NCBI GenBank assembly: GCA_009914755.4
Contig: CP068257.2
Coordinates: forward strand, 21,792,001-21,856,000
Direction: 5' to 3'
Source: the human T2T-CHM13v2.0 reference genome, Homo sapiens
DNA length: 64,000 nt
Shown here: in pieces, positions 6,811 through 7,907 of the stretch
How the letters are laid out: every line of letters begins with the position of its first letter
How positions within the stretch are numbered: the stretch's first letter is position 1
Notes under the pieces: model-generated
What the model saw: the letters and a program-made list of their open reading frames with translations, nothing else
Databases searched by the model: none
Told to the model about the DNA's origin: nothing
Made by a program: the position numbers and the translations under genes

Positions 6811-6850
<40 letters not shown>
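6811..6850. repeat. (GT)19-20 microsatellite, perfect
   Basis: Direct read: ACGTGTGTGTG...TGTGTGTA. It directly abuts the left arm of the inverted duplication. Confidence 0.95.
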
Positions 6851-6851
<1 letters not shown>

Positions 6852-7112
6852 CTCATAGGAAAACCGGTGAATGAAACTGTGGCTCTCAAAGTTACGGAGA
6901 GTGAGAATGTATAAGTCCCCCAAATCCCTTGCCTTTCTGGTAAAATAACTGAGGCATATTCTACACAGACTCTCAGTGGCGCCCAGAGGGATGAAGCCAC
7001 AGCTGCTCTCACGAGGACCCTGCTTATTACCACATCTCATATTTCATCCCTTCCCTCTGCTACTTCCCACTCTTCTACAAGTGCTTCCTGGGATCCCTTC
7101 CTGAGTAAGCTA
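6851..7112. repeat. Left arm of a large inverted repeat (about 262 bp)
   Basis: Read in reverse complement it matches 7644-7907 at about 94-95% identity. For example, GGGATGAAGCCACAGCTGCTCTCACGAGGACCCTGCTTATTACCACATCTCATATTTCATCCCTTCCCTCTGCTACTTCCCA pairs with TGGGAAGTAGCAGAGGGAAGGGATGAAATATGAGATGTGGTAATAAGCAGGGTCCTCGTGAGAGCAGCTGTGGCTTCATCC. The ORF-track entries 6765..7040(-) and 7719..7973(+) encode near-identical peptides (MRCGNKQGPRESSCGFI...), which confirms the mirror duplication. Confidence 0.9.
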
Positions 7113-7643
7113 TATACATTTTATATATATATAAAAGGTATATGGGTATGTATATAAAATGAGTATTAAAATATATAGGGCTCCTCTTCAAGGCATTGAG
7201 AATCAAAGTAACATAAAACCTCATGTGATAAAAAAGACATTAAGCAATTAGATTTTTCCTTTAAGTCGTAAACTGTTCCTCTGTCAAAGGGAAAGTAGGA
7301 AACACTAACTTGCCCTAAAACTAACGGAGACTCTGAAACCTAATGTTATAGTCTCTTCTCTTTGCTGACTACACAAGATAGTCAGAAAAGAAGAAGCAGA
7401 AAATATTAAATCCATGTAGCTAAACATAATATGCTTGGGGGTGGAGGGCAGAGAAAGAGCAGGAGGAGGACTGGTTATAAAAATAAGTAATGCCAAAGTG
7501 TGATTTTGCTCCTCACTAAGTGTCAAGTATTCTAGGCTCTTTCCTGATATTTATTGTAAAAAAAATACTAAATGTAAATGTGTTGTTCAAGACCTGATTC
7601 CCATTAGGAAATGCAACACTCAAGCTACTTCATGATGATATGG

Positions 7644-7907
7644 AAGTAGCTTGCTCAGGAAGGGATCCCGGGAAGCACTGGTAGAAGAATGGGAAGTAGC
7701 AGAGGGAAGGGATGAAATATGAGATGTGGTAATAAGCAGGGTCCTCGTGAGAGCAGCTGTGGCTTCATCCTTCTGGACGTCACTGAGAGTCTGTGTAGAA
7801 TATGCCTCACTTATCTTACTAGAAAGGCAAGGGATTTGGGGGACTTATACATTCTCACTCTCCATAACTTTGAGAGCCACAATTTGATTCATCAATTTTC
7901 CTATGAT
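7644..7907. repeat. Right arm of the large inverted repeat (about 264 bp)
   Basis: See the left arm. The spacer at 7113-7643 (about 531 bp) is unique AT-rich sequence. An 11-bp perfect mini-hairpin, CAAGCTACTTC...GAAGTAGCTTG, sits at the inner edge of this arm (about 7621-7653). Confidence 0.9.

What the first reader, a model, noticed from the sequence alone, without database searches (positions are those of the whole stretch)
6811..7907. Large inverted duplication (about 262-bp arms, about 94-95% identity, 531-bp spacer) next to a perfect (GT)19 microsatellite
The arms at 6851-7112 and 7644-7907 are reverse complements of each other. This is seen directly in the sequence and is mirrored by near-identical peptides from two ORF-track entries on opposite strands. 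About 5% divergence is low for a human DNA-transposon TIR pair, and 262-bp TIRs around a 531-bp non-coding core do not fit any human TE family I recognise. A local inverted duplication, a snap-back or fork-stalling event, or arms homogenised by gene conversion are more likely. Long inverted repeats with short spacers form cruciforms or hairpins and are known hotspots for deletion, palindromic amplification and replication stalling. The (GT)19 tract abuts one arm only, which suggests it expanded after the duplication or seeded it. An 11-bp perfect mini-hairpin (CAAGCTACTTC / GAAGTAGCTTG) sits at the inner junction of the right arm.
Basis: seen in the sequence. Interest (0 to 1): 0.6.

Follow-up and report, generated by a model that had tools for sequence, protein, structure and literature searches.

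The report
Old local inverted duplication beside GT microsatellite
A 268-bp stretch of primate non-coding DNA was copied in reverse orientation about 0.5 kb away, probably by a replication template-switch some 15-35 million years ago; it is a real but ordinary structural relic, not a recognisable transposon.

Summary
Arms 6845-7112 and 7647-7914 are reverse complements: 268 bp, 249/268 identical (92.9%), no indels, E about 1e-113, 534-bp spacer. A perfect (GT)19 at 6812-6849 overlaps the outer TGTGT of the left arm.

The transposon reading found no support. There is no target-site duplication of 4 bp or more, no TG..CA ends, no protein-domain or RNA-family signal, and no other copy in the window. 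Arm divergence (6.2% non-CpG, about 3.1% per arm) matches the window's AluY copies and is younger than most of its AluS copies. That postdates the roughly 37-Mya end of DNA-transposon activity.

The junctions suggest a replication template switch. The right arm continues into a GC-rich flank. The left arm is a GC island between the GT tract and a TA-rich hairpin. Both inner junctions sit at rare perfect 11-bp hairpins (P about 4e-4). TGTGT/ACACA microhomology joins the GT tract to the right arm's outer end.

No human or primate genome, Dfam or RepeatMasker was available, so copy number and orthologue dating are untested. Low to moderate interest.

The parts
6812..6849 (.). Perfect (GT)19 microsatellite. 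Its last 5 nt (TGTGT, 6845-6849) are also the outermost 5 nt of the left arm.
   Evidence: TRF, (19.0 copies, 100% matches); blastn alignment
6845..7112 (+). Left arm of the inverted repeat, inferred to be the derived (inserted) copy. It is a 47.5% GC island between the GT tract plus a 24% GC flank on one side and 28% GC TA-rich sequence on the other.
7113..7646 (.). 534-bp spacer, 33.5% GC, unique in the window, with no internal symmetry and no ORF or RNA-family signal.
7117..7161 (.). Hairpin H1: perfect 11-bp stems CATTTTATATA (7117-7127) and TATATAAAATG (7151-7161) with a 23-nt loop, starting 5 nt inside the left arm's inner junction. Proposed fork-stalling site.
   Evidence: (pair I4)
7621..7653 (.). 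Hairpin H2: perfect 11-bp stems CAAGCTACTTC (7621-7631) and GAAGTAGCTTG (7643-7653) with an 11-nt loop. The 3' stem overlaps the first 7 nt of the right arm. Proposed point where copying stopped.
   Evidence: z = -3.4 and -4.3
7647..7914 (-). Right arm of the inverted repeat, inferred to be the source copy. Its outer end reads CAACACA (7908-7914), complementary to TGTGTTG.
7915..8020 (.). GC-rich (51%) outer flank continuous in composition with the right arm and not duplicated. This is the basis for calling the right copy the source.

Best explanation
This is a single-locus inverted duplication fixed in the primate lineage roughly 15-35 million years ago. The most likely cause is a replication-based template switch of the FoSTeS/MMBIR kind, corresponding to the '1-4-3-2' type in the four-point model. 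The proposed sequence of events is inferred, not shown. The ancestral locus carried a (GT)n tract directly followed by TA-rich sequence with hairpin H1, and about 0.5 kb downstream the source segment 7647-7914. A nascent strand stalled at the GT/TA/H1 site. Its ...TGTGT 3' end annealed to ACACA (7910-7914) on the opposite template. It copied 268 nt back towards the fork and stopped inside the stem of hairpin H2. It then returned to the original template next to where it had left, possibly using TA microhomology. This inserted the left arm with no loss of sequence and no target-site duplication. Since then the two copies have drifted apart neutrally by 7.5% (K2P), possibly with one gene-conversion tract. 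The element has no evident function. If transcribed it would fold into a long imperfect dsRNA hairpin with perfect runs of 81, 43 and 29 bp. At the DNA level it is a weak recombinogenic inverted repeat at most.
For: Shown: 268-bp arms at 92.9% identity with no indels. No TSD of 4 bp or more around the whole unit at three candidate left boundaries, and none around the right arm alone. Arms, spacer and flanks are unique within the 64-kb window even by nhmmer. No Pfam or Rfam signal. GC asymmetry: the right arm (45%) continues into a 51% GC flank at 7915-8020, while the left arm (47.5%) is an island between 24% and 28% GC sequence. Both inner junctions lie at perfect 11-bp hairpins; the window has only about 9 such non-low-complexity hairpins, and the chance that 2 or more of 4 junctions fall within 5 nt of one is about 4e-4. 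The TGTGT shared by the GT tract and the arm is complementary to ACACA at the right arm's outer end. Dating: non-CpG divergence between arms is 6.2% (about 3.1% per arm), against 0.9-4.8% for AluY, 4.0-10.3% for AluSx and 14.7% for AluJo in the same window. Literature: template switches of type 1-4-3-2 create inverted repeats (PMC5453318); leading-to-lagging switches occur at short inverted repeats at stalled forks (PMC10766183); DNA transposons have been inactive in primates since about 37 Mya (PMC11195612).
Against: No outgroup sequence or genome-wide copy count could be obtained, so the single-locus status and the direction of copying (right to left) are inferred only. The jump of about 0.8-1.07 kb is far longer than the 40-80 bp spacing favoured for same-fork switches in yeast, and the 268-bp copy is far longer than typical short template-switch events. 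A longer-range FoSTeS/MMBIR event therefore has to be invoked. Three consecutive mismatches (6850-6852) separate TGTGT from the rest of the arm, so the microhomology reading is not clean. The hairpin coincidence was noticed after the fact. Differences cluster in the outer 50 bp (9 of 19, P = 0.004), which the model does not predict; mutagenesis in the microsatellite flank is an ad hoc explanation.
Confidence: 0.6

Rival explanations
1. The same kind of local inverted duplication, but with the left arm as the source and the right arm as the inserted copy between ...GATATGGAAG (7646) and AGCAGGACC (7915).
For: Copying from 6845 would stop at 7112, 5 nt short of hairpin H1, which is a natural stall point. 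The geometry mirrors that of the favoured model.
Against: The perfect 11-bp stem of H2 would need 7 nt of the inserted copy to complete a pre-existing 4-bp stem by chance. The right arm's GC content is continuous with its outer flank, whereas the left arm is a GC island. The outer junction offers only about 1 nt of microhomology.
Confidence: 0.15
2. A non-autonomous DNA transposon or foldback-like element of about 1.07 kb with 268-bp terminal inverted repeats, from a low-copy or unrecognised family, whose left TSD has been erased by the GT microsatellite.
For: The architecture (long arms, non-coding AT-rich core, no ORF) resembles long-TIR MITEs. The GT tract could hide a TSD. Copy number in the genome could not be checked (all reached only non-human data).
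Against: No TSD of 4 bp or more at any of three candidate left boundaries. By eye and from memory, the termini (TGTGTTGATCATAGG...) do not resemble hAT, Tc1/mariner, piggyBac or MuDR ends. Arm divergence of about 3.1% per arm is AluY-like, while DNA transposition in the lineage ended about 37 Mya, so about 9-13% between arms would be expected. The GC-rich block runs past the right 'terminus' into 7915-8020. There is no other copy or fragment in 64 kb.
Confidence: 0.12
3. An older inverted repeat of either origin whose arms have been kept similar by intrachromosomal gene conversion, so the roughly 7% divergence underestimates its age.
For: An 81-bp identical run is unlikely for 19 differences spread uniformly over 268 bp (P = 0.016). 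The inner 218 bp differ by 4.6%, against 18% in the outer 50 bp.
Against: There are no indels at all over 268 bp, and the differences look like a neutral spectrum (13 transitions, 6 transversions). The uneven distribution can also be explained by the neighbouring microsatellite. This rival changes the date, not the origin.
Confidence: 0.08
4. Two independent insertions of the same young repeat family (for example solo LTRs) in opposite orientation, or an assembly artefact.
For: The outer ends begin with TG and end with CA. A 7-bp inverted pair, TGTGTTG (7579-7585) and CAACACA (7908-7914), bounds a 336-bp unit that includes the right arm.
Against: Both copies end at exactly the same bases at both ends, yet neither has a TSD. 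The inner ends are not CA. The 336-bp unit has no TSD, and the left copy lacks its last 68 bp. An artefactual fold-back would give identical arms, not arms 7% apart.
Confidence: 0.05

Closest known systems
Template-switch mutations creating inverted repeats (four-point model type 1-4-3-2; Loytynoja & Goldman 2017, PMC5453318) and FoSTeS/MMBIR
   Same: A nearby segment is copied in reverse complement and inserted with no TSD and no loss of flanking sequence. The junctions have short microhomology and lie at secondary-structure-prone sequence.
   Different: The copied segment (268 bp) and the jump (about 0.8-1.07 kb) are one to two orders of magnitude larger than the short events catalogued between human and chimpanzee. 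The event is ancient and inferred from one genome only.
ODIRA-type leading-to-lagging strand switch at short inverted repeats (PMC10766183)
   Same: A stalled fork, with a nascent 3' end annealing to a short complementary sequence (TGTGT/ACACA) on the other template.
   Different: ODIRA uses repeats 40-80 bp apart and yields large inverted triplications through extrachromosomal intermediates. Here the distance is about 1 kb and the product is a simple small insertion.
Long-TIR non-autonomous DNA transposons (for example MuDR-type Ricksha in human; foldback elements in other taxa)
   Same: Long inverted arms around a non-coding AT-rich core.
   Different: No TSD, no recognisable termini, arm divergence too young for any human DNA-transposon family, and no evidence of other copies.
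Recombinogenic long inverted repeats (Wang & Leung criteria: stem over 30 bp, identity over 85%, spacer under 2 kb), typified by inverted Alu pairs
   Same: Meets all three numerical criteria. The arms pair fully as single strands.
   Different: The arms are not Alu-derived or derived from any repeat recognised here. The 534-bp spacer and 7% divergence place it at the weak end for cruciform or hairpin-driven instability.

Membership tests
Class II DNA transposon with terminal inverted repeats | Target-site duplication directly flanking both termini | tested here: not met
   No direct repeat of 4 bp or more within +/-6 nt of the boundaries, using 6812, 6845 or 6850 as the left boundary and 7914 as the right. 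Caveat: the GT tract could have overwritten a left TSD.
Class II DNA transposon with terminal inverted repeats | Multiple dispersed copies sharing the same termini | not testable with these tools
   No human genome, Dfam or RepeatMasker was available. There is no second copy in the 64-kb window. Scans of metagenome, viral and GTDB collections and of the protein collection reached no human sequence.
Class II DNA transposon with terminal inverted repeats | Age compatible with known activity in the lineage (37 Mya or older) | tested here: not met
   Non-CpG divergence of 6.2% between arms (3.1% per arm) equals the window's AluY level and is below most of its AluSx copies. Activity ended about 37 Mya. 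Gene conversion could mask greater age.
Class II DNA transposon with terminal inverted repeats | Terminal motif of a known superfamily, or a transposase remnant | tested here: inconclusive
   No Pfam domain in any arm or spacer ORF. The termini TGTGTTGATCATAGG do not match hAT, Tc1/mariner, piggyBac or MuDR ends as I recall them; they were not compared with a library.
Solo LTR pair / LTR retrotransposon | TG...CA ends and a 4-6 bp TSD for each copy | tested here: not met
   The outer ends are TG/CA but the inner ends are ...AAGCTA. Neither arm nor the 7579-7914 unit has a TSD, apart from a 4-bp ATAC for the left arm with about a 50% chance expectation.
Template-switch / FoSTeS-MMBIR inverted duplication | Reverse-complement copy of nearby sequence inserted without a TSD | tested here: met
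Template-switch / FoSTeS-MMBIR inverted duplication | Microhomology at the switch junctions | tested here: inconclusive
   TGTGT/ACACA (5 nt) at the outer junction, but followed by 3 mismatches. Only 0-2 nt (TA) at the inner junction.
Template-switch / FoSTeS-MMBIR inverted duplication | Junctions at fork-stalling structures | tested here: met
   A GT tract and perfect 11-bp hairpins H1 and H2 sit at the junctions. P is about 4e-4 by window-wide hairpin density. This test was made after the hairpins had been noticed.
Template-switch / FoSTeS-MMBIR inverted duplication | Ancestral empty site preserved in an outgroup species | not testable with these tools
   No primate genomes were accessible.
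Recombinogenic long inverted repeat (Wang & Leung criteria) | Stem over 30 bp, identity over 85%, spacer under 2 kb | tested here: met
   268 bp, 92.9%, 534 bp. Criteria as quoted in PMC4319165.
miRNA / hairpin-RNA locus | Match to a described RNA family, or evidence of transcription and processing | tested here: not met
   No Rfam family at gathering threshold. Only sub-threshold chance hits at E up to 1. Expression is not testable here.

The most novel reading that the evidence does not exclude
The locus is a young, lineage-specific long-hairpin RNA gene in the making: a 268-bp-stem dsRNA precursor created de novo by template switching, analogous to the template-switch origin proposed for primate miRNAs (PMC10710096) but about ten times larger. 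It would be transcribed and processed into endo-siRNAs or act as an ADAR/MDA5 substrate. A second possibility is that it is the first copy noticed of an uncatalogued foldback-type element active in catarrhines after canonical DNA transposons died out.
Probability: 0.05. Interest if true: 0.6.

Novelty: new member of a known kind. Interest (0 to 1): 0.25.

Why it matters
If the reconstruction holds, this locus is a clean fossil of a mid-sized replication template switch: hundreds of bp copied over about 1 kb. All four switch points would be readable, each at a structure-prone sequence (GT tract, two hairpins). Events of this size fall between the short template-switch mutations catalogued in ape genomes and the kilobase-to-megabase FoSTeS/MMBIR rearrangements seen in disease. 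In practical terms, the perfect (GT)19 is very likely polymorphic, and the inverted repeat can confuse short-read mapping and PCR. Otherwise this is neutral intergenic or intronic sequence with no indication of function.

Tried and rejected
1. I searched for other copies or orthologues. The 84-aa arm peptide against 5.8 billion proteins gave nothing. Exact lookups of two arm ORFs gave nothing. A 20-mer scan of metagenome contigs gave 4 hits with no further homology, so they are chance matches. Viral contig scans and the GTDB genome scan gave nothing. These collections evidently hold no human non-coding DNA, so the negatives say nothing about copy number in the human genome.

2. Rfam gave no hit at gathering threshold. 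At the relaxed threshold the SCARNA7 hit (23 bits against a gathering score of 65) is caused by the GT tract, and the mir-316 and RAGATH hits are noise.

3. Pfam on five arm and spacer ORFs gave nothing.

4. A full-text literature search for six arm 20-mers found no papers.

5. I rejected L1-mediated retroposition of the left copy: there is no A-rich tail at either end and no TSD. I rejected L1 3' transduction from the neighbouring L1-like element: there is no second poly(A).

6. I rejected fold-back priming at hairpin H2 as the origin. It would place the arms directly against the 11-nt loop, and the sequence left of the H2 stem (AACACT) is not the complement of CTCAGG.

7. The extra 12 nt per arm in the repeat finder pair I1 match at 4/12 and are chance.

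8. Looking for exons in the window in order to fetch orthologous loci did not work: no ORF of 110 aa or more looks coding.

9. Pace & Feschotte 2007 (PMC1832089) is not held in the library, so the date for the end of DNA-transposon activity is quoted second-hand from PMC11195612.

Full report
OBSERVATION

The sequence at 6500-8300 contains a large inverted repeat. Gapped blastn of the left region against the window aligns 6845-7112 with 7914-7647. The alignment is 268 bp with 249 identities (92.9%), no gaps and E = 3e-113. The repeat finder reports an ungapped 280-nt pair at 91%. The 12 extra inner nucleotides match at only 4/12 and are chance. The spacer is 7113-7646, 534 bp.

TRF finds a perfect (GT)19 at 6812-6849. 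Its last five bases, TGTGT, are also the first five aligned bases of the left arm. The right arm ends in CAACACA, the complement of TGTGTTG.

Identity over 6851-7112 is 93.1%, not 94-95%. The right arm runs 7647-7914, not 7644-7907. The spacer is 534 bp, not 531 bp.

The mirrored peptides are real. They have no Pfam match, no homologue among 5.8 billion proteins and no exact record, so they are simply open frames in non-coding DNA.

As single strands the arms pair end to end. DNA MFE is -341.7 kcal/mol. RNA MFE is about -600 kcal/mol on either strand, against about -275 kcal/mol with one arm shuffled.

ANATOMY OF THE DIFFERENCES

The 19 differences comprise 13 transitions and 6 transversions, and 3 are CpG-associated. 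K2P distance is 0.075, and non-CpG divergence is 6.2%.

The differences are not evenly spread. Nine lie in the outer 50 bp next to the microsatellite (binomial P = 0.004). There is also an 81-bp identical run (P = 0.016 under uniformity). This could reflect mutagenesis in the microsatellite flank, a past gene-conversion tract, or both. It was seen after the fact and is only suggestive.

DATING

Non-CpG divergence from consensus is 0.9-4.8% for five AluY copies, 4.0-10.3% for eight AluSx copies and 14.7% for one AluJo copy.

If the arms diverged symmetrically, each has accumulated about 3.1%. That places the event in the AluY era and makes it younger than most AluS insertions. With 0.9-2.2e-9 substitutions per site per year, the estimates span roughly 10-40 Myr depending on the sites used. 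I take 15-35 Myr as the plausible range. Gene conversion would make this a minimum.

IS IT A TRANSPOSON?

I could not run Dfam or RepeatMasker, and no human or primate genome was reachable. The protein collection, metagenome, viral and GTDB scans returned nothing relevant. The four metagenome 20-mer hits have no further homology. Genome-wide copy number, the decisive test, therefore remains open.

What could be tested argues against a TE:
- There is no direct repeat of 4 bp or more flanking the whole unit, whether the left boundary is placed before the GT tract, at 6845 or at 6850. The right arm alone has none either. The left arm alone has only a 4-bp ATAC, which has about a 50% chance expectation.
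- The inner ends are not CA, so the arms are not complete LTRs.
- There is no other copy or diverged fragment of arm, spacer or flanks in the 64-kb window, even by nhmmer at --max.
- There is no transposase or retroviral domain.
- The AluY-like age postdates the roughly 37-Mya extinction of DNA-transposon activity in the lineage (PMC11195612; PMC5753468). A TIR pair from the youngest families should differ by about 9-13% by the window's own AluS yardstick.
- The GC-rich block containing the right arm does not stop at the 'terminus'. It continues into 7915-8020 at 51% GC.

JUNCTIONS AND MECHANISM

The two arms sit in very different contexts. The right arm (45% GC) is continuous in composition with its outer flank. 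The left arm (47.5% GC) is an island bounded by (GT)19 plus a 24% GC flank on one side and TA-rich 28% GC sequence on the other. This suggests the right copy is the source and the left copy the insertion.

A scan for perfect hairpins (stem of 11 bp or more, loop of 3-30 nt) finds only about nine non-low-complexity examples in 64 kb, against about one in block-shuffled sequence. Two of them lie at the inner junctions of the big repeat:
- H1 (7117-7127 / 7151-7161) starts 5 nt after the left arm ends.
Its 3' stem includes the first 7 nt of the right arm. It folds well above shuffles (z = -3.4 and -4.3).

From hairpin density, the chance that two or more of the four junctions lie within 5 nt of such a hairpin is about 4e-4. 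This is a post hoc figure.

These features fit a switch-and-return replication error. The nascent strand stalls at the GT/TA/H1 site. Its TGTGT end pairs with ACACA at 7910-7914 on the opposite template. Synthesis runs 268 nt back and aborts inside the H2 stem. The strand then returns beside its point of departure.

In the four-point notation of Loytynoja & Goldman this is a 1-4-3-2 event, the class that creates inverted repeats (PMC5453318). The initial step resembles the leading-to-lagging switch at short inverted repeats described for ODIRA (PMC10766183).

There are caveats:
- The jump (about 0.8-1.07 kb) and the copy length (268 bp) far exceed the 40-80 bp spacing favoured in yeast and the short-range switch events those studies address. 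A longer-range FoSTeS/MMBIR event has to be assumed.
- Three consecutive mismatches at 6850-6852 separate TGTGT from the rest of the arm.
- The direction of copying is inferred.

The mirror model, with the left arm as source, explains H1 equally well. It requires the 11-bp H2 stem to have been completed by chance by 7 nt of the inserted copy, and it leaves the GC asymmetry unexplained.

CONSEQUENCES

The repeat satisfies the numerical 'recombinogenic LIR' criteria: stem over 30 bp, identity over 85%, spacer under 2 kb (quoted in PMC4319165). Experimental work in yeast, however, shows that lengthening the spacer from 12 bp to 100-200 bp reduces inverted-repeat-induced recombination or rearrangement 20- to 300-fold. 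Divergence lowers it further, except in long single-stranded DNA (PMC10164571).

The survival of the structure for tens of millions of years without a single indel in the arms agrees with that.

No described RNA family matches. If the region is transcribed, a long imperfect dsRNA would form, with perfect runs of 81, 43 and 29 bp. Expression cannot be assessed here.

VERDICT

This is a real inverted duplication with no sign of function. It is best explained as an old local template-switch insertion next to, and probably primed from, a GT microsatellite. It is a new example of a known kind of event. Its junction anatomy is neat, but the decisive comparative and repeat-library tests remain to be done. 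Interest is low to moderate.

Noticed in passing
window 7579-7585 and 7908-7914: A 7-bp inverted pair, TGTGTTG ... CAACACA, bounds a 336-bp unit that contains the right arm plus 68 bp of spacer. The ends are LTR-like (TG..CA), but there is no TSD of 4 bp or more. It may be chance, with about a 2% expectation.
   Followed up: partly
window 8074-8320: A T-rich run (8074-8095) is followed by sequence that I recognise from memory as the antisense of an old L1 3' end. If so, a minus-strand L1 ends about 150 bp to the right of the right arm. This was not tested against a library.
   Followed up: no
window 6596-6690: A MIR-like core sequence on the plus strand, upstream of the GT tract. Recognised by eye only.
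   Followed up: no
window 21836-22433: Two head-to-tail AluY copies (21836-22115 and 22155-22433; TRF period 320, 92% matches) with different non-CpG divergence from consensus (0.9% against 3.1%), followed by a 40-nt poly(A).
   Followed up: no
window 15910-16001: A 30-bp minisatellite with 3.1 copies at 98% identity.
   Followed up: no
window 17522-17678 and 40530-40584: Long TA-rich tracts that contain most of the window's perfect 11-bp hairpins. They are AT-rich and palindrome-like, so potentially more structure-prone than the finding itself.
   Followed up: no
window 1583-1629, 1814-1880, 12357-12393: Other long dinucleotide microsatellites: (CA)23.5, (TC)34 and (TG)18.5. GT/CA tracts are common in this window, so a GT tract next to the arm is not remarkable in itself.
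   Followed up: no
window 6755-6887: A sub-threshold Rfam SCARNA7 match (23 bits against a gathering score of 65, E = 0.005) produced by the GT tract. Not a real scaRNA.
   Followed up: yes
window 31034-31579 (minus strand): The longest ORF in the window (181 aa) overlaps the AluSx copy at 31190-31474 and its peptide looks Alu-derived. No ORF of 110 aa or more in the 64 kb looks coding.
   Followed up: partly
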